DNA of 64,000 bases from Escherichia coli phage Shin27: sequence record LC788709.1. The stretch is one strand, 5' to 3'. The notes under the pieces are model-generated. The model was given only the letters and a program-made list of their open reading frames with translations. It ran no database searches and had not been told where the DNA came from. Position numbers and translations under genes: made by a program. Shown piece by piece: positions 9,295 through 56,979 of this stretch. Positions within the stretch are counted from its first letter, which is position 1. Each line of letters begins with the position of its first letter.

Positions 9295-12200
9295 TTAAGA
9301 ATTACCAAGTGATTTCAGGGTGGTTCCATTCTCATTAAGAGCCTGTTCTACGGCATCCCTGAAAGCAGCACTGTTGCTCGAAGCAAAGTCTCGGAAGCTA
9401 GCCGCATCCATCGTACTGATGTTCAGCACAATAGGTCTACCCGATGTACCCTTTGAAGATCCTTTGAGTTCATCAGTAGGAGTAGCCTTCATCGGAACCA
9501 TAGGAGTGATTACTTCGGTACCATGTTCACCCATCTGGTAACTAACTCCAGGATACATATTACCACCTTCTGCACGGGGTACGAAAGAGTTAGCATTACC
9601 AATCCCTTGATCTCCTCGAATATAAGAAAGCTCACCTGCGTTAGCCGACATAGAAACGTCTACGTTCTTCTGGCGCTCTCCAAGAGTTAAGTAACCAGCT
9701 GTCTCAGCACCAGAGTCCCCAATAGAAGACATACCAGATGCAGAGGATGCTTGAGCAAGAGCCATAGCACCTGCTAAACCAGCCGCAACCATCAGAGGAA
9801 TAGAGAATGGATACGGAACAGCTGTTGCTGCCTGCATCACCGCTACTGCCGTCTGGATAATGATTTGCTTCTTAGCCGCATCTTGCTGGATCTTGAGCTT
9901 TTCAGCCTCTAACTTCTTGATCTTAGCTTTAGATTGCTCAGATTTACCATCACGTTTCTGTTCTGCTGCAATAGCTGCATCAATAGCACTTACCTGTTGA
10001 CCAACACTATACTGAATCATTGAAGATACAGTTTGCATACCAGCCGCTACTAGAGAAGTGGTATCCAGAGATCCTTGTGAAAACTGGATCATAGCATTAG
10101 TTAGGTTACCCATGCTTTGTGCTACAGCAGTTGCTTCGGAGTTCAGTTCAGACAGCTTAGAAATAGCCTGGTCATAGGATGCCATTCTATTCTGCATATC
10201 CATATTTGCTTTATCATCTCCTTCCAGTCCAGTTGTTGGAGTGTAAACACCACCAACAGAAGAAGTGACTTGCTGCTGCATCTGAGCATCACGTTGCATC
10301 TTAAGCTGTGCTAGAGCTGCCGAAGTTTCTTGGATTTTACGCTTATACTCTTCCTGAGCTTGTGCATTTCCTTTTGTAATTTCCAGTAAACTTTGGTACA
10401 GAGCTTGCTGTTCGGTTAGTCTCTGAGATTCCCCCGTAACGTTTCTGCTAGTCTGTGAAATATTAAGAGCTCTTTCACGTCCAGAAGCCATTTCCCTTTG
10501 CTGATCCTGACGGAATTTCCAGATTTCACGTTCAATTTGTGCCTGAGCTCGTCTTGATTGTTCAGCTTCCTTCTGCTTATCAATCTGCTTGGAGTACCAC
10601 ACATACTTCTCTTTCTCGATAGTCAGTTCAAGGTTCAACTGAGCTAAACGATATTGAGTATCTGTCATAGTACGGTTATTCAGGAGAGCAATTTCACGAT
10701 CAACACCAAGAATCTTATCGGTATAGTCCTTAACCTTCTTCTGAGCTTCCATACCCTGGTTAGTGATCTTGATACGTTCTAGCTGAATCTTAGCTATCTC
10801 ACCTTCGATTGCTTTGTTACCCTTGTTAGTTTCTAGGACACGCTTAAGAGCTGCTTCCTGTTCTTCTAACTGTTGGATTTCCAGACGTCTACCAGCTTCC
10901 TGTGCTTTCTCTTTGTCCTTAGTCTGGCTATACACTTCGGCAATCTTCTGCTGAACTTCTAGCTGATTCTTAGTCTCATTACCAGTTAATTTTACATAAC
11001 CAGCAAGAGCTTGTGAAGCAGTCTTCATCTCACTAAGAGTATTATACCCTAAGTTCAGGCTCTTAACATACTCATCAGCATTTTTACCAGTACCCGCGGA
11101 TAGAGACTCAATAGTCTTAATCGTATCTGATAAGGATGCACTAGTTTTAGCCGCAGTATTAGTATTCTGAGCGATGTTCTGGATATCGTTAGCTAAATCA
11201 CTAGCAGTTTTCTTAGCCTGATCATATGCTTTCTGCTGTTCTGTCAGTCCTTTCAGAGTTGCAGAGTTGAAGTCATAAACCGCATCAGGGTCATTTGCAT
11301 CTTTCTGTAGGTTAATTTGCTTCTGGAATTCTGGATTAGCCTTAGCAGCTGCAGCACCAGCAGCTTGGTATGCCGATTTCCATGCATTAAGATTGCCAGT
11401 TGAATCCTCTACTTCCTTATCAAGACGCTCTACCTGGAGAGCTAATGCAGCAGTATCTGCAATAAATTTCTGGTTTTCTTCAGAAGATCCTATGCGAACT
11501 CCTCCTACTTCAAAACCTCCTGCAGCTAACCCTACCGGTGCACCTTGAGCAACTAAACGAATAGCCCCTGCTGTAGATGCATCTGCTTGCTGCATACGCT
11601 TATCTAGATCAGCTTTTAACTTATTACGCTTTTCTAGAGATTCTTTGTACATATCAAGAGCTTTATTATATCCTTCCTCAGAAGCGGAAAGACTTAAAGC
11701 TACAGCACCAACGTTAGTTGGGTCAATCTGACGGTTAGTTTCTTCCTGTGCTCTAGCAGCAGAGGCCGAGATAGATGCTTGAGAAGTATAGAACACTGCG
11801 TTGATAGAATCAATTACTGGCCCTAAATACTTAGCAGCAGCCTGTTGAACCTTTCTCAGTGCAGCATCAGCATTAGCAGCAAACTGTTCCCAGGGGGTTG
11901 CACGAAGTACATCATCAAGATAGCCGAAACGTTTAGTAGATTCAGCGATAACTGCGTTAGCATATGCTTGTTGCTTCTGGAAAGTAGAGAGACTATTAAC
12001 GTTATATGTAATACCTGTGTTAGCAGCATTTAACTGTTTAACGTAGTCTGCGTAAGCATCGTTAAGACGAATAGTAACACCAAGTTCGTCCAGAAGTTCG
12101 ATTTCTTGTTTAGATACACCCTTGATTACACGGTTAAGTGCATCAGTCATATCAACACCAAGAACAGCAGCAGCACGACGAGCTACTAGACCAAATTTAT

Positions 12201-28198: not shown

Positions 28199-28285
28199 TT
28201 GTTACATTCTCCATTTAAGGGATTTAGGTTAATTCAATCTTGCCAGCTAATTATATTGGATTAGCTGGCAATGTTCAATTAACTA

Positions 28286-28678: not shown

Positions 28679-28710
28679 GTTTATGACTCCAGATTATTTA
28701 ATTACGGGAT

Positions 28711-28989: not shown

Positions 28990-29041
28990 TTAATAAACCT
29001 TTTATTAATGGCGGTATATTTCAACCGCCGATTAAATTTAA

Positions 29042-30706
29042 TTATGCAAAGAATTTACCGTTTTTGAAATCAATCAAAGTACGTTGCCCGTTTGCATAGG
29101 TAATTAAATGCGTTTGCGTCCAGCTTGACGCGCCCACGTTGTAGCCCATATCAAGGGAACCAGCAACGCCAGCGGTATAAACGCCGCCGTAAATGCTAGC
29201 CGTGTGAGTGTGACCAGTGTTAAGGCGTCCCAACTTTTTAAACTGCTTAGGATTGCCCCGACTGCCGTTAATGCCATTGTGACCATGTACGCCGCATTCA
29301 ATGCCAGCGATTTTAAAGGACTGGTCAGTAGTCAAAAAAATGGCGTTAAATTCGCATCCTGCAACGTTTCTAAGCGCATAATCTAACACGTTAAAGGTAT
29401 CATCCTTTTCAGCAATAGCGGCGTAAATCGCAGCGTTTAGACGGTGATACAGTTCCGCGTTTGCGGGATCATCTTTAATGTTTGCGTTACGATCATCTAA
29501 CCAGCGGGATAATGCTAAATCATGGTTAGATTCCACAATGATTGTTTGACTAAAATCACGTTCCATAGATTCTAATACGCGTCCAGTATCGATAAGATCA
29601 TCAATAACTTTATCACGTCCGGCGGCGTATTGTTTCGCAAGGAATACACCACTAGCGCGGTTATGATGGTTACGCGATGTAAAATCATGCACGTCATGAA
29701 TAAATTGATATTTCGGTTTAAGAATATCAAGCAAGCTGTTTTCACTAGCCCATGAAGCGACGGCGCAATCATCATCTAATTTTTCGGCGTGAATATCGCC
29801 ATATTGCAAGCCTAGAACATGATCGGACGTTTCAAAACATCCGGTAGGCATAGCGCAAACATTCAAATCATAGAACATTCCGCTTTCATCCATTGTTTCA
29901 ATCTGGCGAGCATAAAATTCGCCGTCGTCGTCGAACTCTACCAGCAAAGCGCCATAATTATGTAAAGCCTCAGCTTTTTGACCTGCTTTCTGCTGAATGT
30001 AGTTTTTAAGCGTAGCCGTTCCGGTTGAATACATACGGCACACTACTTCACCTTTTAACGCTGGCACACTTTCAGCGGTAATTTTAGCGTGACCAATTGC
30101 CAGACCTTCAATATTTAAAGCCGTGGCGGTTTCTGCGAATCCTGAAAGCGGGTAATCTGCCGTTGGTAAAACGTTAATTTCAGCCATGAAAGCAAAGCGG
30201 CGGTTATTTAAAAATACGTTTTTATCACAAACATATTTATCAAATGCGGGATCGTATTTAATACCGTTTGCCCCTTCCCCGTTCTGAAATCCGTTTTTGT
30301 TGTAAATGAATTTGCTAACAAGTAATTCAGCGCCGCAATATTCAGCGAATTTTTCCAGACTTGCTAAAAAGTTTTTATGCGGGAAAGTATTATTTTGAAT
30401 CGACGTTAGAATAAAACGGCGACCGGACTTAACTTCCCATTGCTCAACGGTGCTAGAAACAATTCCCGCCGCCTCTGGGCGATCATCGTTTTTAATCGCC
30501 TTTTCGGCTTTTGCCGCTTTCGGTTTCGCTGGTTTATTTGCTTCCAGCCAGTCACAAATTGCGGTCGAATGTTTCGGCGTACCATAAACAGCTTTTGAAA
30601 TATCGTCGCAAACTTCCAATTTAGTAGCGCGTAAACGCTTACCGTAGAAGTTAAAATCTGCGGCCATTTTCAAAATTTGAGCTTGTTTTTCTGCGGAAAT
30701 ATTCAT
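29042..30706 (-). CDS. A1: pre-early protein A1 (metallophosphoesterase/Mre11-like fold)
   Basis: 554-aa ORF with calcineurin-like motifs in order: GDIHAE, IHDVHD, ESNHD, GVHGHNG, GHTHT. Size and position match T5 A1. Confidence 0.85.
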   Translation of the reverse strand: MNISAEKQAQILKMAADFNFYGKRLRATKLEVCDDISKAVYGTPKHSTAICDWLEANKPAKPKAAKAEKAIKNDDRPEAAGIVSSTVEQWEVKSGRRFILTSIQNNTFPHKNFLASLEKFAEYCGAELLVSKFIYNKNGFQNGEGANGIKYDPAFDKYVCDKNVFLNNRRFAFMAEINVLPTADYPLSGFAETATALNIEGLAIGHAKITAESVPALKGEVVCRMYSTGTATLKNYIQQKAGQKAEALHNYGALLVEFDDDGEFYARQIETMDESGMFYDLNVCAMPTGCFETSDHVLGLQYGDIHAEKLDDDCAVASWASENSLLDILKPKYQFIHDVHDFTSRNHHNRASGVFLAKQYAAGRDKVIDDLIDTGRVLESMERDFSQTIIVESNHDLALSRWLDDRNANIKDDPANAELYHRLNAAIYAAIAEKDDTFNVLDYALRNVAGCEFNAIFLTTDQSFKIAGIECGVHGHNGINGSRGNPKQFKKLGRLNTGHTHTASIYGGVYTAGVAGSLDMGYNVGASSWTQTHLITYANGQRTLIDFKNGKFFA

Positions 30707-30814
30707 AACTAAATCAACTCCTATAAAGGGATAAATATTAATACTGGCAATATTGCCAAATATAACGCCTTGCCTGAAGTGAGGACAATTTAAAAGGCGT
30801 TATAATTTGCAATA

Positions 30815-31060
30815 TTATTCTAGAATTGGCATAAGACTAGAACTAAAACCGCAACTAATAGCCAGCGTTAAAAATATAATCGCTAGATATTTTTGTTTAT
30901 TAGCTTGACGTTTAAACATATCAGCGGCATAAGCTGAATTAATGCCGATAATAGAGATTATATATTTGCCGTAATTAAATATAAATATAGCGGCAACTAT
31001 AAATAAACCTAAAATAAACGCTTCACTAGGGAAGAAAATCATTTTAATAACTCCGGTCAA
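30815..31060 (-). CDS. small membrane protein
   Basis: 81-aa ORF with two or three hydrophobic segments, located between A2 and A1. Confidence 0.45.
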   Translation of the reverse strand: MTGVIKMIFFPSEAFILGLFIVAAIFIFNYGKYIISIIGINSAYAADMFKRQANKQKYLAIIFLTLAISCGFSSSLMPILE

Positions 31061-31100
31061 AGGGAAATTATAGCGGGGAATATTCCCCGCTAATTAGAAT

Positions 31101-31517
31101 TTATTCACCTGCGGCCTGTTTTACTTCCTCCGCTACGCCTAACAATTGCGCTACGGCGTCCAGCGTTTCCAGTTTAGCACTTTCAAGGCTTGCCAGATCG
31201 TCGGCATCTTTTACGATACCTGAATCAATGGCGTGTTTAGCGATGACGCGCACATAGTGAGCTTTACGAATTGAGCTACCGCCGCCAACTTTGCGAGGTT
31301 TATCGCTTTTCTGATAGGCTTTTGCGCTTGTCAGTTTAGAACGTACAGACACCGGACTAGCAGCACCAACGGCGGCGGCAATTTCTTTCAGGCCGTCACT
31401 GTTAGCAAATTCACTTCCGCTTTTAGCGACCATTTCAGAATACATAGAAACAGCTTTTTCGGTGTTTTCTTCGTTCCAAGAGAATTTTGCGGTTTTTTCG
31501 GTTTTAACGTTAGACAT
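31101..31517 (-). CDS. A2: pre-early protein A2-like (probable DNA-binding)
   Basis: 138-aa ORF immediately upstream of A1 in the transcription direction. Assignment rests on recalled T5 order and size only. Confidence 0.6.
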   Translation of the reverse strand: MSNVKTEKTAKFSWNEENTEKAVSMYSEMVAKSGSEFANSDGLKEIAAAVGAASPVSVRSKLTSAKAYQKSDKPRKVGGGSSIRKAHYVRVIAKHAIDSGIVKDADDLASLESAKLETLDAVAQLLGVAEEVKQAAGE

Positions 31518-31805
31518 AATTTAATACTCCATTCAATTATTAATTAAGGGATTATGATTAACTAAATGTTAATCGCTATATATTCTATTAGCTAGAATAT
31601 ATATAACGGAAACATTTTATTTTTATTTCCAGTTTCAAGCGGTTTATTAATTCCCGAATATATTTATATTCTCACCTTACCCGGCTTGCCAGAGAATTAA
31701 TAAGGCAACATTGTATTTATACGCTGTTTATTATTCCGTTCACGCTAGGAATATTTCGAGTTATCTTTATTGCCTAACTAAGCATGATATGTAAGGCGCA
31801 TTAAT

Positions 31806-32057
31806 TTATGCGATAGCTTGCCATTTATCATCTTTCTGAATGATTTTTACAACGTCGCCAGATTTAACACGGACGTTATAAATAGGCTTGCCGTGGTTAC
31901 TGCGTTCCGTTTCCGCATAGACCGCTTCAATCTTATCAAAGGGATCAAGCGCCGCACCTTTAATACGTTCAGCTTTTCCAGTTAATTCATCCGTTTTAGT
32001 AACGAAAGGAATAAAAACGGATTGACCTACTTTCGGTGCGGTGATAACGTTTTGCAT
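31806..32057 (-). CDS. hypothetical pre-early protein
   Basis: 83-aa ORF with GGAG-type SD context (CCGGAGTATTAAAAATG on the coding strand). Confidence 0.5.
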   Translation of the reverse strand: MQNVITAPKVGQSVFIPFVTKTDELTGKAERIKGAALDPFDKIEAVYAETERSNHGKPIYNVRVKSGDVVKIIQKDDKWQAIA

Positions 32058-32191
32058 TTTTAATACTCCGGTTTATTGGGGGATTATTCCACAATAGCGC
32101 CTCGATACTTTGAAACGCTATTAGATTATAATCCGCTAGGAGTTAGCCTAAACATTACCGTTTTTCCAAATTGTTAAAGAGCAGTTACTAC

Positions 32192-32489
32192 GGGGAACAT
32201 CTTAAAACCTATCGGCTAGCGTGTCAATCGTTTTTTAAACTTTTTTCGATTTGATGGGAGTTATATAAATCAATCATTATATTACGCCACACCATTTCCA
32301 GCCCTTGTTGCTTGCCTTTCTTGTATTGCTTGAATCTGTATTTTACAGATCGTTGCGCTACTGTCAACAAATTTTTTGTTCTGCTATCAAGCGACTTGAT
32401 AGGCTTGCCAGTGATCAAAAGCGTTTGTTTCATATCGTCGATTCCTTATAATATCTAAGTTTACCGCCGATAGGCTTTAAGATGTTCCC
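32192..32489. repeat. 24/25-bp inverted repeat pair flanking a 69-aa ORF
   Basis: GGGGAACATCTTAAAACCTATCGGC (32192-32216) versus GCCGATAGGCTTTAAGATGTTCCC (32466-32489), with one mismatch. Confidence 0.8.
32224..32433 (-). CDS. small basic protein flanked by 24-bp inverted repeats
   Basis: 69-aa Lys/Arg-rich ORF (RSVKYRFKQYKKGKQQ). The inverted repeats lie at 32192-32216 and 32466-32489. Confidence 0.4.
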   Translation of the reverse strand: MKQTLLITGKPIKSLDSRTKNLLTVAQRSVKYRFKQYKKGKQQGLEMVWRNIMIDLYNSHQIEKSLKND

Positions 32490-32840
32490 TAATTTTTAAA
32501 GAGCATGGCAGGGTTTTGAAAGGTCAAACAGACTGTCAATCGCTGTTATCCCCGCCGTGTAGTTCGTCATTGCCGCCCTACGTGATAAATAATAGGAGAA
32601 TACCGAGAAGGGCGCAAGCGTATTTTTGTAAAGAAACGTAAAGAAAACCACTACTCGCAAACGTCCAGCGGCGCATTAAATTTAATGAAACGGGCGCGCG
32701 AATAACACCAAAACAACCATTTTAGCAAGTAATTTTTTTCATTTATATTTGCTTTGCCATACTTGACAAAATCTAAAATCCTCGTGGTGAGGTTTTCTCG
32801 GTGTATCCCTTATGATTGCCTATCCTTTCCTTTGAGGCGC

Positions 32841-32867
32841 TTAGAATGCGTTACAGAGCGTTTTAGA
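32841..32867 (+). repeat. 27-bp perfect direct repeat, copy 1
   Basis: TTAGAATGCGTTACAGAGCGTTTTAGA is also present at 37084-37110. Confidence 0.85.
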
Positions 32868-33246
32868 CCCTGTTAATAACTTATACAAAAAGCAAAAATG
32901 AAATTTAATGAGTTATCCACTTGATTTTTCAAAAAAGTATTTTCTGCTGTTATTTTTCATTGACAAATAAGTTTAGACGTGCATTTATTGGTTAGCAGAC
33001 TAATAATCGCTAGGAGGATAATCACGCTGGTGGATTGTAACAGCCGAAACAGTTAGCGGACTATTAATACTTTAAAAACCTATTAGCCAACTAACTATTT
33101 CATAATATATAATATACACATAAATTAATGAGAAATAATAACTATGAGAAACTATCGGGCTAAGTGAGAACCACTATCATTTAGGTTATGCACAAAGCTA
33201 TCCACAGCACAAAATAACTTGACGCAATAGGCGACGTTTTGGCGAC

Positions 33247-33255
33247 TTATCCACA
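33247..33255 (+). promoter_or_regulatory. DnaA box (perfect TTATCCACA)
   Basis: Exact 9-mer. Near-matches are CTATCCACA at 33198-33206 and TTATCCACT at 32913-32921. Confidence 0.6.
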
Positions 33256-33275
33256 GACTTATATACAGGTTATCC

Positions 33276-33295
33276 TACTGTATAAATATACAGGG
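33276..33295. promoter_or_regulatory. LexA (SOS) box-like palindrome
   Basis: TACTGTATAAATATACAGGG has the CTGT-N8-ACAG core and is AT-rich, adjacent to DnaA boxes. Confidence 0.55.
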
Positions 33296-33543
33296 TAGAA
33301 TGGTAGCAGTAACAACCGCAATCAAATTTAAGCGGCCTAGAACGCGCTACACGGCGTTTTCTCACTGCTACCCTTATTATAATAAAGCCTTGTGTACGCT
33401 TACAGAGAGCTAGAAATAGAAAACGCGCGATTATCATAAAAACGGGCAGTAGGCAAGGAATAAAAAACCTTTTCTTTTTTTCTTGCCCCTAGCGAACAAT
33501 TATCTATATCATTCACTCACCGATTAACGAGGGAGACAAAGAA

Positions 33544-34545
33544 ATGTCTACTGTAAGAATTGCAGTACCAGCAAACGCAACTATTATTAAAGGTAGTTTG
33601 CGCAACCTGCTAGATGGTAGTAGTGCGGCAAGTATTCAGCACACCGCCGCAATGGTTGAAAAAATTCACGAGGATATTTTAGATAATAATGATACTCATT
33701 ATTCAGTCGATGATTTCACGCTATTACTAGACCAGACAAGGGCGCTAGTAATTTTCAACCGTGATTATCACATTTTCCGTAATAGTCAGGGAACTGATAT
33801 TGATTTTATCATTGTTGGTTATAGTGAGTCTCATAGTGGTTACATTGCGCGATTATATAACGTGCAAGAAAAAGAGCAGGTAACAGCAACAAAAGTAAAT
33901 AATATCAGATTGGATAGTGTCGGATCGTTATTAAATAGTATCTGGCGTGAATTATCATCCAGTTATAAAGGTGCTGATAGTGACGCAATCGAAACAACTG
34001 GCGTATTGTGCTTTGAACGCGCTAGCGGTAACATGTTGATCCCTAACGATTATTTAGAGTATGGGAATGAATCAAACGTTGCAAACGCTGGATTTACACT
34101 TTTACCGCTTGACAATGTAGCAAAACAGGCTGTAAACTCTCAAACTTCAAGCGCAAATGCGCAAACTACTGAAAATAAAGGAAATATTATGTCTAAAGTA
34201 TCTTCTATCGTTGCCGCTAATAAATCCGCCGTTGTTAACGCTGCTAAACTGGAAGCGGGTAAAATTGCACTGACTCAAATCACAAAAGTAGCGGCGAAAA
34301 AAGCGCCGTTTATGATTAAAGGTTATATCGATACGCCGATCGGTCGCGTAGTGATCGCTAACCTGTTAAGCGTAGCGGTTGACCAGTACGCCCCGACTAA
34401 TGCGAAAGCGAAAGCGGTAGCAGGCGCGGCAATGGAAGCGGCAATGCTGGAAATGGTACAGAGTTTCAATATTGCGGAAATGATCGATGAAATGGTAAAA
34501 GGTATTGACATTTCTACTTTTACCACTAACACCGAAAGTGAGTAG
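33544..34545 (+). CDS. hypothetical pre-early protein (largest gene of plus-strand cassette)
   Basis: 333-aa ORF with a GAGGGAG SD 8 nt upstream. The C-terminal third is an Ala/Lys-rich amphipathic region. A hairpin follows the stop. Confidence 0.65.
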   Translation: MSTVRIAVPANATIIKGSLRNLLDGSSAASIQHTAAMVEKIHEDILDNNDTHYSVDDFTLLLDQTRALVIFNRDYHIFRNSQGTDIDFIIVGYSESHSGYIARLYNVQEKEQVTATKVNNIRLDSVGSLLNSIWRELSSSYKGADSDAIETTGVLCFERASGNMLIPNDYLEYGNESNVANAGFTLLPLDNVAKQAVNSQTSSANAQTTENKGNIMSKVSSIVAANKSAVVNAAKLEAGKIALTQITKVAAKKAPFMIKGYIDTPIGRVVIANLLSVAVDQYAPTNAKAKAVAGAAMEAAMLEMVQSFNIAEMIDEMVKGIDISTFTTNTESE

Positions 34546-34612
34546 TAATAACTAGCGGGGATTATTTCCCCGCGTTACTATTTCCCTGTTAATTGTTAGG
34601 AGACTACTTATT

Positions 34613-34921
34613 ATGCAACTGAATCAAATCATGTTGACGCAATTAGCCGAAAAAATGCCGAATAGCCCCCATGTTAATTATTCGGACGATCAAAGCAATA
34701 TTCCTATATGGGAAAAACAAGGCCGTCCCTTTTTATGGGAACATGTAGAAAGCGCGAATAATTATCATGCTTTCTTTGATCGTGGTTATGGCTGGCTATG
34801 TATTTTTGTAGACGAAACTTTGCTGGATTATGGAATGGATGAAATAGTCCGTGATGACGTAATTTTCTTAAATAAAGGATTTTACAGTGTAGCAAATTCT
34901 CTTTATTTCCCTGCTAATTAA
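34613..34921 (+). CDS. hypothetical protein
   Basis: 102-aa ORF with a TAGGAG SD. Confidence 0.55.
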   Translation: MQLNQIMLTQLAEKMPNSPHVNYSDDQSNIPIWEKQGRPFLWEHVESANNYHAFFDRGYGWLCIFVDETLLDYGMDEIVRDDVIFLNKGFYSVANSLYFPAN

Positions 34922-34934
34922 TAGGAGGCTAGTT

Positions 34935-35429
34935 ATGTCAGAAGAAAAATATGGCTTTTCACTAGAAAGTGTGAATGAAGCTAAACACGATATGATAGTT
35001 TTAGTTGATTGTCATACTGGCTATTGCGGGGAAGGCTGGACGGAGGAACATTTTGTTCCCGCTGGCTGTGATCTGGACGCTTTCGCAAACGAACACGCAT
35101 ATGATAATGCTTCTCGTTTCGGTAGTGATGGGGAAGAAGATGAAGAAACAGGGGAATGGATTGAAAATGATAATGTTTATGCGAGTATTTATCATTATCA
35201 ATTGAGTAAATCCGGTATTTATGTAAATGGCGGCGATCCTATTAATACCGTTATGAAACTAATTATTAAACACGGTGGCGCGGAAATAATTGGTAACAAG
35301 GCGTTATTATATGCAAATCGATTAAAACAGCTTGTTTATATTCCTGATAATTCCCGTTGGGATGAATATGCCGTTTTACAGAAAGAACTAAAACGCTGTT
35401 TCGGTGTGGAAGCATTAGAAATAGTCTAA
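34935..35429 (+). CDS. hypothetical acidic protein
   Basis: 164-aa ORF with a TAGGAGG SD and an acidic tract (GSDGEEDEETGEWIENDN). A terminator follows. Confidence 0.6.
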   Translation: MSEEKYGFSLESVNEAKHDMIVLVDCHTGYCGEGWTEEHFVPAGCDLDAFANEHAYDNASRFGSDGEEDEETGEWIENDNVYASIYHYQLSKSGIYVNGGDPINTVMKLIIKHGGAEIIGNKALLYANRLKQLVYIPDNSRWDEYAVLQKELKRCFGVEALEIV

Positions 35430-35443
35430 TGTAAAGTTTTGTA

Positions 35444-35472
35444 AAGGTCGCCTATTATGGCGACCTTTTTTG
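35444..35472 (+). terminator. Rho-independent terminator
   Basis: AAGGTCGCC-TATTAT-GGCGACCTT followed by TTTTGTT. Confidence 0.75.
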
Positions 35473-35479
35473 TTATAAT
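35471..35479 (+). promoter_or_regulatory. possible extended -10 promoter
   Basis: TGTTATAAT lies immediately after the terminator at 35444-35472. No good -35 is present. Confidence 0.3.
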
Positions 35480-35536
35480 GCCTTTACACCGAAACGGTGG
35501 GTTGAAAATTTTCCCTGATTTCTAGGAGGCGTTAAA

Positions 35537-35764
35537 ATGGTACATTCATCATCTTCTGCAATTTTTAACGGTATGGAATGGGTATCCGTTCCCGCTATTG
35601 TCAGCGTTATGGTTTCTGAGTTCGGCATAGGTAAAACTTATGTTACCATTCAGGGGCTTTACGACAATGACAAGATTGACCAGCAAACCGCCGGATTTTT
35701 GCTGGATGAATTGAAAGCTAACCATTGCACTAAAAAGCAAGCGGCAAAAATTGTTTTAATGTAA
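35537..35764 (+). CDS. hypothetical protein
   Basis: 75-aa ORF with a TAGGAGG SD. Confidence 0.5.
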   Translation: MVHSSSSAIFNGMEWVSVPAIVSVMVSEFGIGKTYVTIQGLYDNDKIDQQTAGFLLDELKANHCTKKQAAKIVLM

Positions 35765-35810
35765 TTAATAAAGGGGGTATATTATCCCCTAATTTCTAGG
35801 AGCTAATAAA

Positions 35811-35960
35811 ATGGTTATTTTTCGATCTATTCTAGCTAGTATCTTGGGCGCTATTTTATCACTGTTTGTAATAGCTTTCGGCGTTAACGTGGTTATTATT
35901 GGAGCAGGTATCGCTGGGTTTTCTTACTTGTTAGGCTGTATGACTGGTAAAGGGGAATAA
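35811..35960 (+). CDS. small double-pass membrane protein (49 aa)
   Basis: MVIFRSILASILGAILSLFVIAFGVNVVIIGAGIAGFSYLLGC... with a TAGGAG SD. It is below the ORF-track cutoff. Confidence 0.4.
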   Translation: MVIFRSILASILGAILSLFVIAFGVNVVIIGAGIAGFSYLLGCMTGKGE

Positions 35961-35962
35961 AA

Positions 35963-36175
35963 ATGTTAAAGAATGTTTCCCTTGCCCGTTCTAAAGGTTT
36001 TAAGCTGGTGGATGTTAACACGTTCGAGCGTCCAGATTGTAAAATCGAATATGTAGCACGCAACAAAAACGCTTTCCGTGTTACTGAAAAGAAATTTGAC
36101 AAGCGCGGAAATTTGGTAGCCGAAACGGTTAAACACTTTGCTACTTTTTACGCTGCGTTTCGTGGGGTATTATGA
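35963..36175 (+). CDS. hypothetical basic protein
   Basis: 70-aa ORF that starts 2 nt after the preceding stop. Confidence 0.5.
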   Translation: MLKNVSLARSKGFKLVDVNTFERPDCKIEYVARNKNAFRVTEKKFDKRGNLVAETVKHFATFYAAFRGVL

Positions 36176-36273
36176 GATCCTTATATATTGCTCTAGCGTT
36201 TGCTACCGTTGGCGTTGTTTGCTCATTCGCTGCATTTGTTCTAAAAATGTACCTGATATTTTCCCAGCTTTAG
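36172..36273 (+). CDS. small membrane peptide (33 aa)
   Basis: MRSLYIALAFATVGVVCSFAAFVL... It has an ATGA start/stop overlap with the upstream ORF. Confidence 0.3.
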   Translation: MRSLYIALAFATVGVVCSFAAFVLKMYLIFSQL

Positions 36274-36284
36274 GAGCTTGACAA

Positions 36285-36632
36285 ATGGTTATTTATGAGG
36301 GTAATCGCTTTGTTACTAATTGCCGTCCGGCATTATTAGCAAACTATTTAAATCAGCTTTCCCCTGTTTATAAAGGCGTGGTTAACATCTATGAAGGCAA
36401 AGCGCACTATAGAATTAATGCCGTTGTCGCTCGCGAGCTTGCCTTTCAGTTTCTTACTTTTAACTCATGCGATATTCAGGTTATGGGTGAGTCTTTGATT
36501 GCAGAAAATGAAGATGAATTTATTAACATTTTCCGCAAAGTATGTACAGAGCGCCTGATTATGAAAGGCGCATATATTCAATCAACCGCTGATAGTATTG
36601 AAACAGCGTTTCGAAAAATTGTAAATGAATAG
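36285..36632 (+). CDS. hypothetical protein
   Basis: 115-aa ORF with a TAGGAG SD. Confidence 0.55.
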   Translation: MVIYEGNRFVTNCRPALLANYLNQLSPVYKGVVNIYEGKAHYRINAVVARELAFQFLTFNSCDIQVMGESLIAENEDEFINIFRKVCTERLIMKGAYIQSTADSIETAFRKIVNE

Positions 36633-36755
36633 CTGGTGGCGTAAAACGCAATCCCATAAATCTAATAATACCGCTGGGAAACATTCCCAGCGTTTACGAT
36701 TTGGGAACGGCTTCACAATGTTAATAATAATCATTCTCATTCTAGGAGCAATGGC

Positions 36756-36995
36756 ATGGCTGTAAGAATTTTACGATATGTAGAACGTAAAGAAACCGAT
36801 ATTATGCAGCATCATTTAACTGATGGGCAATACGCGCAATTTTTAGAAATGCAGAAAAGCGGAGCTAGTACGGCGGCGCTAGGGGCGTGGATCAATTCAG
36901 TTTCAACGTGTACGCATTTTGATTCATACGGGTATACGCCAGCCGAAACCGTCCAGATCTTTGACGACTACGAGAAGGAATACATAGCAGACTAA
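36756..36995 (+). CDS. hypothetical protein (last gene of cassette)
   Basis: 79-aa ORF with a TAGGAG SD. An AATCATTCTCATT operator-like half-site lies at 36729-36741 and a terminator at 37001-37031. Confidence 0.5.
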   Translation: MAVRILRYVERKETDIMQHHLTDGQYAQFLEMQKSGASTAALGAWINSVSTCTHFDSYGYTPAETVQIFDDYEKEYIAD

Positions 36996-37000
36996 TAATA

Positions 37001-37031
37001 GCGGGGCGCAACTATCGGCCCCGCCTTTTCT
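37001..37031 (+). terminator. Rho-independent terminator at the end of the plus-strand cassette
   Basis: GCGGGGC-N10-GCCCCGC followed by CTTTTCT. Confidence 0.65.
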
Positions 37032-37083
37032 GCCTGCAAACAAATTTCCCCTTATTAAAATACCTCCTCCAAAAATAAACGCG

Positions 37084-37110
37084 TTAGAATGCGTTACAGA
37101 GCGTTTTAGA
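37084..37110 (+). repeat. 27-bp perfect direct repeat, copy 2
   Basis: Identical to 32841-32867. It lies 31 nt upstream of the near-consensus LexA box. Confidence 0.85.
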
Positions 37111-37140
37111 GCTATATTAGAGTTATTCACTACGTAGGAA

Positions 37141-37160
37141 TACTGTATATTTATACAGTA
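37141..37160. promoter_or_regulatory. LexA (SOS) box, near-consensus
   Basis: TACTGTATATTTATACAGTA differs at one position from the E. coli consensus TACTGTATATATATACAGTA. Confidence 0.65.
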
Positions 37161-37168
37161 GAATAACC

Positions 37169-37177
37169 TGTGGATAA
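37169..37177 (-). promoter_or_regulatory. DnaA box (perfect, reverse orientation)
   Basis: The plus strand reads TGTGGATAA. An 8/9 box, AGTGGATAA, lies at 37181-37189. Confidence 0.6.
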
Positions 37178-37241
37178 GTCAGTGGATAACGCCTCAAAAT
37201 CGCTAGGATTTTGTCAAGTCAAATCGTGCTGTTAATAAACC

Positions 37242-37250
37242 TGTGGATAA
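37242..37250 (-). promoter_or_regulatory. DnaA box (perfect, reverse orientation)
   Basis: The plus strand reads TGTGGATAA. Confidence 0.6.
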
Positions 37251-37283
37251 CTTAAATAGCAGTGTTTCTCACTTCGCTTTCTA

Positions 37284-37413
37284 AATGCGAATCATTCTCA
37301 TTATGCGACTCATTCGTATTCAATTCTGTAAATGATAATCATTCCCATTCCACTTTCTAAATGCGAGTAGTTCTCATTCGCATTCAACTTCTCAAATGCG
37401 AATCAATCTCATT
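37284..37413. repeat. five copies of a 19-bp imperfect palindrome (AATGCGAAT-N-ATTCTCATT family)
   Basis: Copies lie at 37284-37302, 37303-37320 (degenerate), 37331-37349, 37360-37378 and 37395-37413. A lone half-site lies at 36729-36741. Confidence 0.75.
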
Positions 37414-37432
37414 ATCAGTTGCATTTCGGCAG

Positions 37433-37463
37433 GCAGGGCATTTTCTATTTGCCCTGCGCTTTT
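37433..37463 (+). terminator. terminator-like hairpin inside the repeat region
   Basis: GCAGGGC-N11-GCCCTGC followed by GCTTTT. Confidence 0.4.
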
Positions 37464-38065
37464 GTGCAAATCCGACATCTGCCCCCACGGATTACGTGCC
37501 AGCGTGCATGTGCGAATCCGACAATTTTTGGTAGTGTGCAAATCCGATGGGAAATATTTTTTATATGTGCGAATCCGACAATGAATTTTCCTAAAAACTC
37601 CAGCAATCCGCAACTGCGATGCAATCCAGCTGGATTTACTAGAGTATGCGCAAATCCGACATGAGTTTATTTGTGCAAAACCGACAAGATTTTTGTGACT
37701 TCGATGAGAGGGTGTGTGATTGTGAGGGTTTGGGGAGAAGTGCGAATCCGATGAGATTTTGGGAGGAACTACGGAAGGAGCAGCGGTGATGGTGCTTTAG
37801 CACCGGTTTGCTGCATTTTTGAGGATAATGCGGGATGTTTTGGCTAGAATTGAGATTAGGGGAGATAAAGCGAAATTTTATTAGCAAAATGGGGCAAAAT
37901 CGCTTGACAAGTGAAAATTCCTGTGGCTCTAAAAAACTCAGGCAAATATGGGCCTTCGGCCCGAAATAATGCTGCTATTTTCAGTGTTCCTAAAAACTTT
38001 GGAGACTCCTATCAATGTGCAAATCCGACCATAAATTTCTAGAAACACAGTGTGCAAATCCGATA
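37464..38065 (+). repeat. iteron-like array: nine same-orientation copies of GTGC(A/G)AATCCGA(C/T)N
   Basis: Copies start at 37464, 37510, 37536, 37567, 37648 (variant), 37673 (variant), 37740, 38017 and 38052. Spacing is irregular and no ORF is supported. Confidence 0.85.
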
Positions 38066-38224
38066 GCAATTTCCAGAAATGTGTTTTGGAAAAATGTCTC
38101 CTAGAAATAACCGCCCTCCCTATAACCGCCCTGTATTAAACCGCCTATTGCTGGAGTTTCTAGGAACATGAAAACCGCCTGAGTTGGCGAGAGTTTTCCT
38201 AGAAACTTAGGAGTCTACTAGAAA
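38036..38224. repeat. six TTCTAGAA-type palindromes interleaved with four (T/A)AACCGCC(C)T direct repeats
   Basis: The TAG-centred sites lie at 38036-45, 38071-80 (degenerate), 38098-107, 38157-66, 38195-205 and 38214-24. The AACCGCC repeats lie at 38108, 38123, 38137 and 38171. Confidence 0.75.
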
Positions 38225-38492
38225 GTGTTGTGCTATCCTAGCAGATGAGCGGCAACAGGTGTATCATCTTGAACATTAATTTATCTATTCAACAGTATTA
38301 GTTTTTATATAAGTATAAGATCCCCAGGGGATTGTGAGAGATGCTCCACCCCTGGGATACGAATTGCGTGAGATGGTACAAAACTTCTGAAGATTTCCCT
38401 AGCCCTCCGACAAGCTACGGGGGAAATAGAAGTTTCCCATCCACCATCCGTATCCGGGTGGATCTCTTTATTCTATGTTATTTCATAGAGTT

Positions 38493-38521
38493 ATTATAAC
38501 ATGCAGAAATCATAACGTCAA
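38493..38521 (-). promoter_or_regulatory. sigma70-type promoter reading into ORF-free hairpin-rich DNA
   Basis: Coding strand reads TTGACG, 17 nt, TATAAT, just downstream of the stop of the 296-aa gene. Confidence 0.5.
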
Positions 38522-38528
38522 GTAGAGT

Positions 38529-39419
38529 TTATTCATCGAACATGAGATTTCCTTTCATCCCCATCTCCGCATACTCCATGAGTTCTCCTAGGGATCTCAC
38601 AGGGTAATCTACTTTACTGAAGTTATCATAGATCTTACATGAACTCTCGTACAACTCGTTAGGTATCTGCAATTTGTTATCAGTTAGCTTCTCATAACGT
38701 GTAGAAGATTTTGTACCTTCAAACAGAACTGCAATAACTGCGGCGATTTGTTTGGTAAGATCATCTGCTCCTAGAATTATTCTATTAATAGCAATCGTTA
38801 CTTCATGCTTAGGTTTCACAGGTGGAAGGATAGGCTTGAGATCCTTAGGTAAAGGTTCTGTTCCTAGGAATCCTTCTTTTGTGCGGAACCAATAATTATC
38901 TAGATCAGATATTGTCTTAGACTTATTCCATATAGTGAAGCAAGGTTTATTTCCTTCACGATCTCTGTATTCACGAACTGGAAGATAATGATCAGGGAAT
39001 GAGTTGAGTGCATCATGCATTGGTGAGCCTGTCTTTTTAAATGACAAACCGTACAACTCATTATAATTCATAACTTCATCTTCATAAACATGGAAATCTT
39101 TATATGCTGGAAGATTAAACCATTCCTGAAGTGAATGAACTGCAAAACGTTGTGCCCAAGCATGCATCACAAGAACTCTGTACTCTTTTACTTCATCTTT
39201 TGGAGAAGTACCTCTAACTGTTCTAGCTGACCGAATACAGAACATCTCAACAACACGTCTCTCGTTTAAAGAAAGCTCAGAGTAACAACGTTCATGGCAA
39301 CCTTCTAGCATTTCTAGAAGTTCACGTAGTTTCTCTACATCGACCGGTGGAAAAGGTCTCTCTTCCACCGCGAATTTACCAACTACACCTTTCGGCTTTC
39401 TATTACTATAAAATCCCAT
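38529..39419 (-). CDS. hypothetical early protein
   Basis: 296-aa ORF, the last gene of the leftward early transcription unit. Confidence 0.6.
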   Translation of the reverse strand: MGFYSNRKPKGVVGKFAVEERPFPPVDVEKLRELLEMLEGCHERCYSELSLNERRVVEMFCIRSARTVRGTSPKDEVKEYRVLVMHAWAQRFAVHSLQEWFNLPAYKDFHVYEDEVMNYNELYGLSFKKTGSPMHDALNSFPDHYLPVREYRDREGNKPCFTIWNKSKTISDLDNYWFRTKEGFLGTEPLPKDLKPILPPVKPKHEVTIAINRIILGADDLTKQIAAVIAVLFEGTKSSTRYEKLTDNKLQIPNELYESSCKIYDNFSKVDYPVRSLGELMEYAEMGMKGNLMFDE

Positions 39420-40448: not shown

Positions 40449-40735
40449 TAGTTACCCCAAATTAACATCCAACTCTTATCAAAGTTAGATACTCTATTAA
40501 TTAATTCGCCCATAGAAATGTTATTGTTGTCTATGGCTTCTTGTACAAACTCTTTACCGAAATCATCTACTAGGTATTCTGTACCATTTATAATAATCTT
40601 GTAGAGAGCTGGGACTAAAGGATGTTGATGATTAAGAGGACTCTCGTTAACAATTATCTCATTCTTTCCCCACGTCGTCTTGAACAGTTTGTGAGAGAGT
40701 AGAGCTAAGGGGTTTGACCAGACTACGTACTCCAT
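40448..40735 (-). CDS. hypothetical protein
   Basis: 95-aa ORF. It overlaps the upstream 180-aa ORF by 77 nt, so the start is uncertain. Confidence 0.4.
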   Translation of the reverse strand: MEYVVWSNPLALLSHKLFKTTWGKNEIIVNESPLNHQHPLVPALYKIIINGTEYLVDDFGKEFVQEAIDNNNISMGELINRVSNFDKSWMLIWGN

Positions 40736-41201
40736 CTTTCTTTAACTCCTGTTTTAACTTTTGATCTTTATTATACCAAATTATGTGCTCACCGTCAACT
40801 ACAAATTTGTGGAAAGGTGCTGGTACGGTGTACACTCCATATTCTGTTAAGCGTGTCACAACTTTATGTGCACATAATCGGCAACCATGTCCTTCTAAGT
40901 GAGACCGTGCAGTTTGCAAGAAGTAACCATCATGATCTGGACAATAGATCTCAACTTGCTGTTGCATAGTTCTATACTTAACTCTCTCGTATCCAAAGAA
41001 CTTACCATGTGCTTCTACAGCTCTCCTGATAAAGATTAGATTAAGTGCATCTTGCTGGAAGTCTGGATGAAGTTGTTTGAGTTTAATTCTATTAATAGAT
41101 CCATCTGATTTAGTGAATCTATTTATGGGAAACTGTAATGCTTCCTCATAAAGTAATTCGTTTATTTTATCTCTCATAGTATACACGAAAGGCCAGAACA
41201 A
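40659..41201 (-). CDS. hypothetical protein with zinc-ribbon-like motif
   Basis: 180-aa ORF. The segment VEIYCPDHDGYFLQTARSHLEGHGCRLC resembles the Cys/His motif of some phage homing-endonuclease-like proteins. This is a weak call. Confidence 0.5.
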   Translation of the reverse strand: MFWPFVYTMRDKINELLYEEALQFPINRFTKSDGSINRIKLKQLHPDFQQDALNLIFIRRAVEAHGKFFGYERVKYRTMQQQVEIYCPDHDGYFLQTARSHLEGHGCRLCAHKVVTRLTEYGVYTVPAPFHKFVVDGEHIIWYNKDQKLKQELKKDGVRSLVKPLSSTLSQTVQDDVGKE

Positions 41202-56820: not shown

Positions 56821-56896
56821 TGGTAGTTAGTAGTGGATTTGAACCACTGTAGTCGCTCCGTATGAAGGAGGTGCATAACCACTCTGCCAACTAACT
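56821..56896 (-). tRNA. tRNA, anticodon CAU (Met or Ile2 type)
   Basis: Acceptor AGTTAGT/ACTAACT, T-arm AGTGG-TTCAAAT-CCACT, anticodon loop TTCATAC, A73, CCA encoded. Confidence 0.7.
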
Positions 56897-56978: not shown

Positions 56979-56979
56979 A

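What the first reader, a model, noticed from the sequence alone, without database searches (positions are those of the whole stretch)
38290..38525. Consensus promoter firing into an ORF-free run of hairpins at the early/repeat boundary
Seen: on the minus strand, TTGACG, 17 nt, TATAAT (38493-38521) sits just after the stop of the last early gene. The ~200 nt downstream has no ORF longer than 10 codons but four stems: CTATG/CATAG (38471-38486), ATCCACC/GGTGGAT (38439-38463), GGGAAA/TTTCCC (38421-38438) and CCAGGGG/CCCCTGG (38324-38355). On the plus strand the 38421-38463 pair followed by CTCTTTATTCT looks like a terminator. Inference: this is a small structured RNA or a transcriptional insulator at the edge of the terminal repeat.
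Basis: partly seen in the sequence, partly recalled or inferred. Interest (0 to 1): 0.5.

Follow-up and report, generated by a model that had tools for sequence, protein, structure and literature searches.

The report
Unannotated structured RNA gene in T5-like phages
Just outside the left terminal repeat of this T5-like phage, a near-perfect bacterial promoter drives a roughly 170-nt non-coding RNA that folds into one long hairpin; every T5 relative examined, including T5 itself, has the same unit, no database annotates it, and its function is unknown.

Summary
The window is a T5-like phage (Demerecviridae, 99.6% identical to Salmonella phage bux). The promoter is real: TTGACG, 17 nt, TG-n-TATAAT on the minus strand at 38521-38493. 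It is one of only two such sites in 64 kb (0.16 expected).

A promoter sits at the same place and in the same orientation in all 44 related loci recovered. It is also present in Klebsiella Sugarlandvirus phages and Yersinia phiR201, where the upstream gene is followed by its own terminator-like hairpin.

At least nine sequence classes share this architecture although their sequences barely align. Related classes show compensatory base changes (14-18 of 50 pairs, 0 of 500 shuffles). The promoter strand always folds better, and G-U pairs outnumber A-C oppositions 69 to 3. No ORF is conserved.

There is no Rfam match, no annotation in the T5 records and no paper in the searched library. The best reading is an independent non-coding RNA gene, the first transcription unit of the second-step-transfer DNA. 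Function, 3' end and expression remain untested. The plus-strand terminator and stem 4 are not conserved.

The parts
38529..38531 (-). Stop codon of the last leftward early gene (38529..39419, 296 aa, T5.018 homologue, unknown function)
   Evidence: PHROG phrog_8583, unknown function. 43% identity to T5.018 over the N-terminal 195 aa only.
38516..38521 (-). -35 hexamer TTGACG
   Evidence: TTGACR at the same position in 39 of 44 anchor-bearing loci and TTGCAT in the other five. TTGACA/TTGACG in L049-L051.
38493..38501 (-). Extended -10 element TGtTATAAT (TG at 38501-38500, TATAAT at 38498-38493)
   Evidence: TG-n-TA(T/G/C)(A/C/T)AT is kept in every class listed. Only two such sites occur in 64 kb against 0.16 expected.
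38486..38486 (-). Predicted transcription start (an A, 7 nt after the -10 hexamer; plus or minus 2 nt; not measured)
   Evidence: Inferred from promoter geometry. The discriminator and start region AACTCT-A / AATCTC-A is conserved across genera.
38468..38489 (-). A/U-rich 5' leader with a small palindrome TCTATG/CATAGA (38472-77 and 38484-89) that overlaps the start. In other classes a 6-7 bp hairpin lies wholly inside the RNA.
   Evidence: The 5' hairpin shows three pairs changed on both sides in A1 helix 1.
38337..38467 (-). Long rod hairpin: 53 base pairs, apical loop 38406-38411, bulges almost all on the 3' arm.
   Evidence: MFE -68 kcal/mol, z -4.9 and -4.6. Nearly invariant among 10 same-class relatives, and L045 carries matched 1-nt deletions. 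Best hit of covariance model R1 in a 5-kb search is 38308-38476 on the minus strand, E 0.033.
38366..38371 (-). UCACGC motif on the 3' arm of the rod. UCACG-like sequence recurs at the equivalent place in 5 of 6 Markadamsvirinae classes.
38320..38332 (-). Small 3' hairpin AUCCC-CUG-GGGAU
   Evidence: Flagged as terminator-like. A hairpin is kept through a different pairing in L007 (CUUCCAA/UUGGGGG). Only 5 of 13 classes meet simple terminator criteria.
38305..38319 (-). U/A-rich tail CUUAUACUUAUAUAA; possible 3' end of the RNA (not measured)
38274..38319. AT-rich spacer (46 nt, 83% A+T by my own count) between the RNA and the conserved block. AT-rich but variable in sequence among relatives.
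38249..38273 (.). Conserved flanking block GCGGCAACAGGTGTATCATCTTGAA, used here as the anchor to collect relatives. Function unknown and probably not part of the RNA.
   Evidence: In T5 it lies at about 10583 of AY543070.

Best explanation
The region is a self-contained gene for a non-coding, highly structured RNA of about 165-180 nt in this phage and 165-205 nt in relatives.

Shown or directly computed:
- A near-consensus sigma-70 promoter with an extended -10 element sits right after the last leftward early gene.
- The predicted transcript starts near 38486 and runs leftward.
- It has an A/U-rich 5' leader, one long interrupted hairpin (the rod, 38467-38337) and a small GC hairpin with a U/A-rich tail (38332-38305).
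- The fold is kept across T5-like phages while the primary sequence is almost completely replaced. The pattern of changes is specific to the promoter strand. The selected object is therefore an RNA, not a protein and not simply a DNA palindrome.

Inferred:
- The unit lies directly to the right of the injection-stop / terminal-repeat region, so it would be the first second-step-transfer transcription unit to enter the cell.
- Its promoter lacks the ATATT discriminator reported for T5 early promoters. It therefore probably fires with unmodified host RNA polymerase as soon as it enters.
- The most likely mode of action is that of a stable, abundant RNA acting as RNA. It could be bound by a protein at the conserved base of the rod and the UCACG bulge, or be cut by RNase III. 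The distal half of the rod would serve as a sequence-free double-stranded spacer.
- As a by-product it also ends leftward early transcription before the repeat region.
For: Promoter:
- Exact match with TG.
- Two such sites in 64 kb against 0.16 expected.
- Same position and orientation in 44 of 44 loci that carry the flanking anchor, scoring 9 to 12 of 12.
- Also present in Sugarlandvirus phages Shiner and PWKp9S and in Yersinia phiR201. There a hairpin (followed by a T-run in the two Klebsiella phages) lies between the upstream gene and the promoter, which suggests an independent unit.

Structure:
- MFE is one rod, z = -4.9.
- Ten class representatives give z from -3.5 to -7.2.
- Three distant phages give z from -2.7 to -5.8 with the same architecture.

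Covariation:
- T5 class: 3 pairs changed on both sides.
- L013/L024/L010/L019 family: 14 of 50 pairs changed on both sides and 93.7% of cells paired. 0 of 500 shuffles reach this, and slid controls give at most 4 pairs and about 40% paired.
- With the L008 and L011 classes added: 18 of 50 pairs.

Strand specificity:
- The promoter strand folds 2-16 kcal/mol better in 31 of 31 unique sequences and in 3 of 3 distant ones.
- 69 G-U pairs against 3 A-C oppositions over 13 representatives.

Non-coding:
- There is no conserved ORF.
- The 52-codon plus-strand ORF is truncated in 4 of 10 close relatives.

Family link for the window's own class:
- Synteny and the shared promoter.
- Covariance model R1 places its best hit in a 5-kb search at 38308-38476 on the minus strand, full length, E 0.033.
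Against: - No transcript has been observed. The start, the 3' end and the abundance are all predictions.
- The 3' hairpin meets simple terminator criteria in only 5 of 13 classes, so the RNA may be longer or processed.
- Within the window's own class the rod is almost invariant. Covariation therefore comes from sister classes, not from this exact sequence.
- The covariance-model link of this class to the others is weak (13.3 bits). The T5, Klebsiella and Yersinia classes are not found by R1 at all.
- In this class no terminator separates the upstream gene from the promoter. The rod could therefore also be the 3' end of the operon mRNA.
- An inverted repeat kept at the DNA level would also give changes on both sides of a pair. 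Only the G-U asymmetry and the energy asymmetry argue against that.
- No partner, target or seed was found. Complementarity to the rest of the window is at chance level, and the apical loops are not conserved.
Confidence: 0.65

Rival explanations
1. Cis-only element. The rod and the small hairpin are simply the terminator, 3'-end stabiliser or insulator of the leftward early operon. They keep transcription out of the injection-stop repeats and the terminal repeat, and there is no function in trans.
For: - In the window's class no terminator lies between the stop codon (38529) and the promoter, so operon transcripts must run into the rod.
- Terminator-like sites lie at 38332..38320 and again at 38190..38175 on the minus strand.
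- On the plus strand 38444-38461 plus a T-run is also terminator-like.
Against: - A terminator does not need its own consensus promoter, yet that promoter is the most conserved part of the locus.
- In the Klebsiella and Yersinia phages the upstream gene is already followed by its own terminator-like hairpin before the promoter.
- A 53-bp rod kept by covariation is far more than termination needs.
- The 3' hairpin is canonical in only 5 of 13 classes.
- The plus-strand T-run is not conserved.
Confidence: 0.15
2. Replication or repeat-duplication element. The promoter makes a structured primer or R-loop-forming transcript, in the manner of ColE1 RNA II or the T4 and T7 transcription-activated origins. 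Its G-run and the AT-rich stretch downstream would start leftward DNA synthesis across the terminal repeat.
For: The context resembles an origin:
- A conserved G4-5 run lies at the 3' end of the structure.
- It is followed by an 83% A+T spacer of 46 nt and then a strongly conserved block.
- Next come iteron-like repeats: AACCGCC four times, three of them at 15-nt spacing, TGTGCAAATCCGA twice, and CCTAGAAA-type repeats.
- Davison describes DnaA boxes and repeats in this region of T5.
- The orientation is always toward the repeat.
- The terminator is weak or absent in most classes.
Against: - Published mapping quoted by Davison puts T5 origins near the middle of the genome.
- Nothing here shows initiation of DNA synthesis.
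- Transcription-activated origins of T4 and T7 (from my own knowledge) do not need a long conserved RNA hairpin.
- The AT-rich stretch lies 170-200 nt from the start.
Confidence: 0.1
3. DNA-level inverted repeat (a cruciform, recombination or packaging signal, or a decayed palindromic mobile element) that happens to lie next to a promoter. The RNA would be irrelevant.
For: - The rod is a 130-bp imperfect palindrome in the DNA.
- The region is a mosaic junction: the C-terminal third of the neighbouring gene is also replaced between classes.
- Direct-repeat-like motifs flank the rod in several classes.
Against: - The strand asymmetry is strong. The promoter-strand fold is better in 34 of 34 cases, and there are 69 G-U pairs against 3 A-C oppositions.
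- In the reliably aligned sets (T5 class and the L013/L024 set) the one-sided changes are G-U to G-C or A-U on the promoter strand.
- The small 5' hairpin and the single-stranded leader are also conserved in kind, which is not expected for a cruciform.
Confidence: 0.05
4. A small protein gene: the 52-codon plus-strand ORF 38341..38499, or the 27-codon minus-strand ORF.
For: - The ORFs exist.
- Some depositors annotate small ORFs in this intergenic region.
Against: - The plus-strand ORF is cut to 16 codons by a stop in L007, L046 and L047, and to 9 codons by a frameshift in L045. The minus-strand ORF varies from 18 to 32 codons.
- The annotated small ORFs differ in place and frame between records.
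- No ORF is shared between classes.
Confidence: 0.02

Closest known systems
phi29 prohead RNA (pRNA)
   Same: From my own knowledge: a phage-encoded structured RNA of 120-174 nt, made from a strong host-type early promoter near one end of a linear genome. Its secondary structure is kept among relatives while the sequence diverges almost completely.
   Different: - pRNA has a three-way junction and loop-loop contacts that form a ring on the portal of a protein-primed genome, whereas T5-like phages package with a terminase.
- No Rfam family, pRNA included, matches here.
- The fold here is a single rod.
- There is no evidence for any packaging role.
6S RNA (SsrS)
   Same: An RNA of about 180 nt that is largely one long interrupted helix. 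It is relevant to a phage that uses host sigma-70 RNA polymerase for all its gene classes.
   Different: - The defining large central bubble that mimics an open promoter is absent. The largest interruption in the predicted rod is 4 nt.
- There is no match to the Rfam 6S models.
Adenovirus VA RNA I / other viral decoy RNAs
   Same: Function by analogy only: a short, abundant, rod-like viral RNA made from a strong dedicated promoter early in infection. Its double-stranded character, rather than its sequence, matters.
   Different: Eukaryotic virus, Pol III transcription and a PKR target. No bacterial sensor or partner is known for this RNA, and nothing here tests binding.
ColE1 RNA II; T4 ori(uvsY)/ori(34) and T7 primary origin transcripts
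   Same: A strong promoter whose transcript runs into a G-run, an AT-rich stretch and repeats. The position is fixed relative to a replication-related or end-related region.
   Different: No evidence of priming or R-loop formation. T5 origins are reported elsewhere. T4 and T7 origins do not need a long conserved hairpin.
Phage and prophage small RNAs with their own promoter (lambda OOP, P22 sar, P4 CI RNA, prophage Pas/DicF-type sRNAs)
   Same: A stand-alone non-coding transcription unit in a phage genome with a sigma-70 promoter and a hairpin 3' end.
   Different: Those RNAs are shorter and act by base pairing through a conserved seed, or antisense to a neighbouring gene. Here no gene lies opposite, no conserved single-stranded seed was found and no target was detected in the window.
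T5 'Repeat Region 3' / injection stop signal (Wang 2005; Davison 2020)
   Same: Same untranslated stretch between the pre-early genes and gene 018. The conserved anchor and the iterons to the left of the RNA belong to that stretch or abut it.
   Different: Repeat Region 3 is described as ending at 10409 (AY587007). The RNA unit lies to the right of that, at about 10560-10800 in those coordinates, where the three T5 records annotate nothing.

Membership tests
Sigma-70 promoter of the extended -10 class | -35 close to TTGACA, spacer of 16-18 nt, -10 close to TATAAT | tested here: met
   TTGACG, 17 nt, TATAAT: 11 of 12. Relatives score 9 to 12 of 12.
Sigma-70 promoter of the extended -10 class | TG one base upstream of the -10 hexamer | tested here: met
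   TGtTATAAT at 38501-38493, kept in all classes listed.
Sigma-70 promoter of the extended -10 class | Initiates transcription in vivo or in vitro | not testable with these tools
   No expression data are available here. Public RNA-seq exists for Bas33 (PRJEB101990).
T5 early-class promoters (Klimuk et al. 2020) | ATATT consensus in the discriminator region | tested here: not met
   The discriminator is AACTCT here and AATCTC or AACTCT in relatives. The criterion is taken from PMC7472727.
Intrinsic (rho-independent) terminator at the RNA 3' end | GC-rich stem-loop directly followed by a U-tract | tested here: inconclusive
   38332..38320 plus CTTATACTTA passes the simple scan, with 5 pairs of which 3 are G-C. 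Only 5 of 13 class representatives pass the same criteria.
Structured non-coding RNA (generic criteria) | Fold more stable than shuffled sequence | tested here: met
   z = -4.9 and -4.6 for the window, and -2.7 to -7.2 in 12 other representatives.
Structured non-coding RNA (generic criteria) | Compensatory base-pair changes in relatives | tested here: met
   14 of 50 pairs in A1 and 18 of 50 in A2, with 0 of 500 shuffles; 3 pairs in the T5 class. The window's own class is almost invariant, with only a matched pair of 1-nt deletions in L045.
Structured non-coding RNA (generic criteria) | Strand specificity (G-U tolerated on the transcribed strand) | tested here: met
   The promoter strand is more stable in 34 of 34 cases. 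69 G-U pairs against 3 A-C oppositions.
Structured non-coding RNA (generic criteria) | No conserved reading frame | tested here: met
Any Rfam 15 family | Covariance-model score at or above the gathering threshold | tested here: not met
   Only tRNAs pass in the window. With permissive settings the best overlapping hits are far below threshold (IS128 at 15.7 bits against 80; TB9Cs1H3 at 14.7 against 35).
6S RNA | Large central bubble flanked by closing and terminal helices | tested here: not met
   The predicted rod has only bulges of 1 to 4 nt. There is no 6S match in Rfam.
T5-like 'rod RNA' family proposed here | Position between the conserved anchor block and the T5.018-type gene, transcribed toward the terminal repeat | tested here: met
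T5-like 'rod RNA' family proposed here | Detectable by a covariance model built from other classes | tested here: inconclusive
   R1 finds the L008 class (E 4e-10) and the L011 class (E 1.8e-5). On the window its best hit in a 5-kb search has the correct place, strand and extent but scores only 13.3 bits, E 0.033. The T5, Klebsiella and Yersinia classes are not detected. A second, broader model could not be calibrated.

The most novel reading that the evidence does not exclude
The rod RNA is an RNA II-like, structure-dependent primer or R-loop-forming transcript. It is made from the first promoter to enter with the second-step DNA and always points at the terminal repeat. Its conserved G-run and the AT-rich stretch would start leftward DNA synthesis across the 10-kb repeat. 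That would be the missing device by which T5-like phages copy the single repeat of a concatemer junction into two terminal repeats. An equally unexcluded variant is a VA-RNA-like decoy that neutralises a host RNA-binding nuclease or immune sensor, with the hypervariable distal stem reflecting an arms race.
Probability: 0.12. Interest if true: 0.85.

Novelty: new member of a known kind. Interest (0 to 1): 0.6.

Why it matters
T5 is a classical model phage, and its relatives are among the most commonly isolated Escherichia, Salmonella and Klebsiella phages, including candidates for therapy. Several questions about T5 remain open:
- how its three gene classes are switched using only host RNA polymerase;
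- how second-step DNA transfer resumes;
- how the 10-kb terminal repeat is duplicated.

A universally conserved, strongly promoted, unannotated RNA gene sits exactly at the boundary between first-step and second-step DNA. That makes it a concrete and easily testable candidate player in these processes.

There is also a practical point. Annotators currently place inconsistent 'hypothetical protein' ORFs over this region. A covariance model for the family would correct hundreds of records.

Tried and rejected
- **Rfam.** Gathering thresholds on the whole window and permissive settings on 37800-38700 found only tRNAs or noise.
- **Literature.** Searches for a T5 small or non-coding RNA, for transcriptome or start-site maps, and for the promoter sequence itself found nothing relevant. 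Gentz & Bujard 1985 and Davison 2015 are not held, so an old promoter map could still list this promoter.
- **IMG/VR protein search.** Searching with the neighbouring protein gave only one locus. I switched to a conserved DNA anchor.
- **Structure-aware MAFFT (X-INS-i, Q-INS-i).** Not installed.
- **Antisense target within the 64 kb.** Only chance-level matches.
- **Start-site motif TAACTCTATGAAAT as a repeated regulatory site.** 13 matches against 14.3 expected.
- **Function from neighbours.** Five PHROG families of unknown function and no Pfam hit.
- **Small-protein reading.** Rejected.
- **6S-like reading.** Rejected because there is no central bubble.
- **T5 nick motif (PuGCGC, from memory).** Considered for the conserved CACGCGCC. 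The motif is absent in the window and T5 classes, so I dropped it.

Full report
**Identity of the window.** The 1.7 kb around the finding is 99.6-99.8% identical to Salmonella phage bux and E. coli phage Wa28. It matches 439 phage records, nearly all T5-like Demerecviridae. Two relatives with annotated terminal repeats (Sw2, determined by PhageTerm, and SIY1lw) put the right boundary of the left terminal repeat at about window 37930. To the left lie rightward pre-early genes. To the right, from 38529, lie leftward early genes. In T5 the equivalent interval is the untranslated stretch between 'Repeat Region 3' / the injection stop signal and gene 018. The three T5 GenBank records annotate nothing between the last repeat (10409 in AY587007) and gene 018.

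**The observation.**
- The promoter is exactly as described: TTGACG, 17 nt, TATAAT on the minus strand at 38521-38493. It also has an extended -10 TG.
- In a 5-kb scan, loose promoter matches are no more frequent than chance: 12 found against 14.2 expected.
- This quality of match is rare. Only two sites in the whole window, both strands, reach at least 11 of 12 plus TG. Block shuffles give 0.16.
- The four stems are in the sequence, with stem 1 shifted by 1 to 3 nt. Folding the predicted transcript gives one 53-bp interrupted hairpin (38467-38337) and a small hairpin (38332-38320). The energy is -68 kcal/mol and z = -4.9; my own shuffles give z = -4.6.
- Two ORFs longer than 10 codons do exist. 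The 52-codon plus-strand ORF is truncated in four of ten close relatives by a stop or a frameshift, and the 27-codon minus-strand ORF varies in length and sequence.

**Relatives.**
- A distant DNA search showed that most of the 212 records matched share only the leftmost 80 nt of a 291-nt query. The hairpin region itself is conserved in just 38 records.
- I used the conserved block GCGGCAACAGGTGTATCATCTTGAA (38249-38273) as an anchor. This recovered 44 loci from IMG/VR, metagenomes and GenBank, giving 36 unique sequences.
- Every one has a sigma-70 promoter 260-300 nt to the right of the anchor, on the same strand as here. The scores are 9 to 12 of 12, and several are perfect TTGACA, 17/18 nt, TATAAT.
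- The promoter and its TG, the start region and the anchor are islands of conservation. The 170-200 nt between them falls into at least seven barely alignable classes.
- I then searched with the N-terminal part of the neighbouring protein. The same arrangement appears in Klebsiella Sugarlandvirus phages Shiner and PWKp9S and in Yersinia phage phiR201.
- In those three phages a hairpin (followed by a T-run in the two Klebsiella phages) lies between the upstream gene and the promoter. This suggests an independent transcription unit.

**Structure.**
- All class representatives fold into the same plan: an A/U-rich leader with a small 5' hairpin, one long rod of 55-70 pairs, and a short G-rich 3' hairpin or tail.
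- z-scores range from -2.7 to -7.2.
- Within the T5 class, three pairs change on both sides and three more switch between G-U and G-C or A-U.
- In an alignment of four related classes (A1, 8 sequences), RNAalifold predicts 50 pairs. Fourteen of them keep pairing through changes on both sides.
- In A1, 93.7% of cells are paired against 85.9 ± 1.0% in shuffles. None of 500 shuffles reaches the observed number of double changes. Sliding the partners by 1-3 columns gives about 40% pairing and at most 4 such pairs.
- A covariance model built from A1 finds two further classes at full length, L008 (E 4e-10) and L011 (E 1.8e-5). With those added, 18 of 50 pairs show double changes. That alignment is fitted to the model, so it leans toward the structure.
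- On the window, with filters off over 5 kb, the best hit of the same model is 38308-38476 on the minus strand, full length. The score is weak (13.3 bits, E 0.033).
- The window's own class (10 sequences) is almost invariant in the rod and variable just outside it. The one informative change is a pair of matched single-base deletions.
The small hairpin next to it is re-formed by a different pairing in L007.

**RNA or DNA.** A palindrome kept at the DNA level would also show changes on both sides of a pair. Three results favour an RNA read from the promoter strand:
1. That strand folds 2-16 kcal/mol better than its complement in 31 of 31 unique sequences and in the three distant phages.
2. Over 13 representatives there are 69 G-U pairs but only 3 A-C oppositions. 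A-C oppositions would be G-U pairs on the other strand.
3. In the two reliably aligned sets (the T5 class and the L013/L024 set) the one-sided changes interconvert G-U with G-C or A-U on the promoter strand.

**What it is not.**
- No Rfam family matches.
- It lacks the central bubble of 6S RNA.
- It has no significant complementarity to the rest of the window.
- Its start-site motif is not repeated elsewhere.
- The neighbouring proteins have no known function.
- The literature library holds no description of an RNA or a promoter here. Some older T5 promoter papers are not held.

**Mechanism.** The computed results are a conserved, very strong promoter, an RNA-level structure under selection, and an independent unit in distant relatives. 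The rest is inference.
- The unit lies immediately to the right of the injection-stop region, so it should be the first second-step-transfer promoter to enter the cell.
- Its conserved discriminator (AACTCT / AATCTC) differs from the ATATT reported for T5 early promoters. This suggests a different control.
- The 5' and 3' hairpins and the long rod suit a stable RNA that is bound by a protein or cut by RNase III. The conserved base of the rod and the UCACG bulge are the likely recognition site, and the distal rod is free to drift.
- It must also stop leftward operon transcription in the classes that have no upstream terminator.

The 3' end is uncertain, because only 5 of 13 classes have a canonical terminator-like site.

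That weakness keeps an origin-like or primer reading alive. It is reinforced by the conserved G-run, the 83% A+T spacer, the conserved anchor and the iteron-like repeats to the left. T5 origins have been mapped elsewhere.

**Verdict.** It is a conserved, unannotated non-coding RNA gene of T5-like phages, present in T5 itself at about complement(10642..10844) of AY543070. The 'small structured RNA' reading is supported. The details of four hairpins, stem 4, the plus-strand terminator and 'edge of the repeat' are not. Expression and function remain to be shown.

Noticed in passing
window 38109-38179: AACCGCC occurs four times on the plus strand. Three copies are at exact 15-nt spacing (38109, 38124, 38139) and one is at 38173. 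The reverse complement GGCGGTT recurs at the equivalent place in Klebsiella phages Shiner and PWKp9S (L049, L051). The repeats look like iterons.
   Followed up: partly
window 38013-38063: Two direct copies of CA(A/G)TGTGCAAATCCGA lie 35 nt apart, and T5 has three. TGTGCAAAT is one base away from the reverse DnaA-box consensus TGTGNAWAA used by Davison.
   Followed up: no
window 38155-38207: A perfect 12-nt inverted repeat AGTTTCTAGGAA / TTCCTAGAAACT with a 29-nt spacer, among many CCTAGAAA-type repeats (T5 'direct repeat D') that continue outside the terminal repeat.
   Followed up: no
window 37950-37962: Hairpin GGGCCTTCGGCCC lies about 20 nt to the right of the inferred end of the terminal repeat (about 37930). 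It is annotated as a minus-strand terminator in phage Sw2 and is conserved in T5.
   Followed up: no
window 38249-38273 (extends left to about 38235): The block GATGAGCGGCAACAGGTGTATCATCTTGAA is conserved at 80-97% across more than 200 T5-like records while both flanks vary. It contains AGATGA...TCATCT arms. Its function is unknown.
   Followed up: partly
window 40770-40798, minus strand: The only other site in 64 kb that matches the consensus promoter plus TG is TTGACG, 17 nt, TGgTATAAT. It lies inside the ORF 40659..41201 and points at the last five leftward genes.
   Followed up: no
window 38529-39419 versus T5.018 (L004 2437-3321): The neighbouring protein is 43% identical to T5.018 over the N-terminal 195 residues only, and the C-terminal 80-100 residues are unrelated. 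The hypervariable island therefore spans the gene's 3' end and the RNA gene, and only the promoter between them is conserved.
   Followed up: partly
L013, L008, L010, L019 and L004 transcripts; window 38480-38493: A motif like AAYCTCAYAKR appears twice in direct orientation: once over the start site and once just after the rod (for example L008 AACTCTCATGAAAT, which nearly equals the window's start-site AACTCTATGAAAT). In L019 both copies carry CAC in place of CTC.
   Followed up: partly
Apical loops: window 38403-38412; T5 L004; PWKp9S L051; phiR201 L050: The Shine-Dalgarno-like CGGAG(G/C) occurs in or next to the apical loop of the rod in four otherwise unrelated classes. T5 has two copies in a loop of about 23 nt. 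It is absent in the other classes.
   Followed up: no
L001 3297-3386, L003 1590-1742, L045 153-323, L046 375-551: Depositors annotate different short 'hypothetical protein' ORFs in this intergenic region, with different places and frames in each record. These are probably spurious calls.
   Followed up: partly
window 56821-63335, minus strand: A cluster of 21 tRNA genes, as expected for a T5-like early region.
   Followed up: no
window 1 to about 28100 versus about 28100-37930: The repeat length in Sw2 (9816 bp) implies that the physical left end of the genome would fall near window 28100. The window therefore appears to come from a permuted assembly with the two terminal repeats collapsed. 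This is an inference and was not checked.
   Followed up: no
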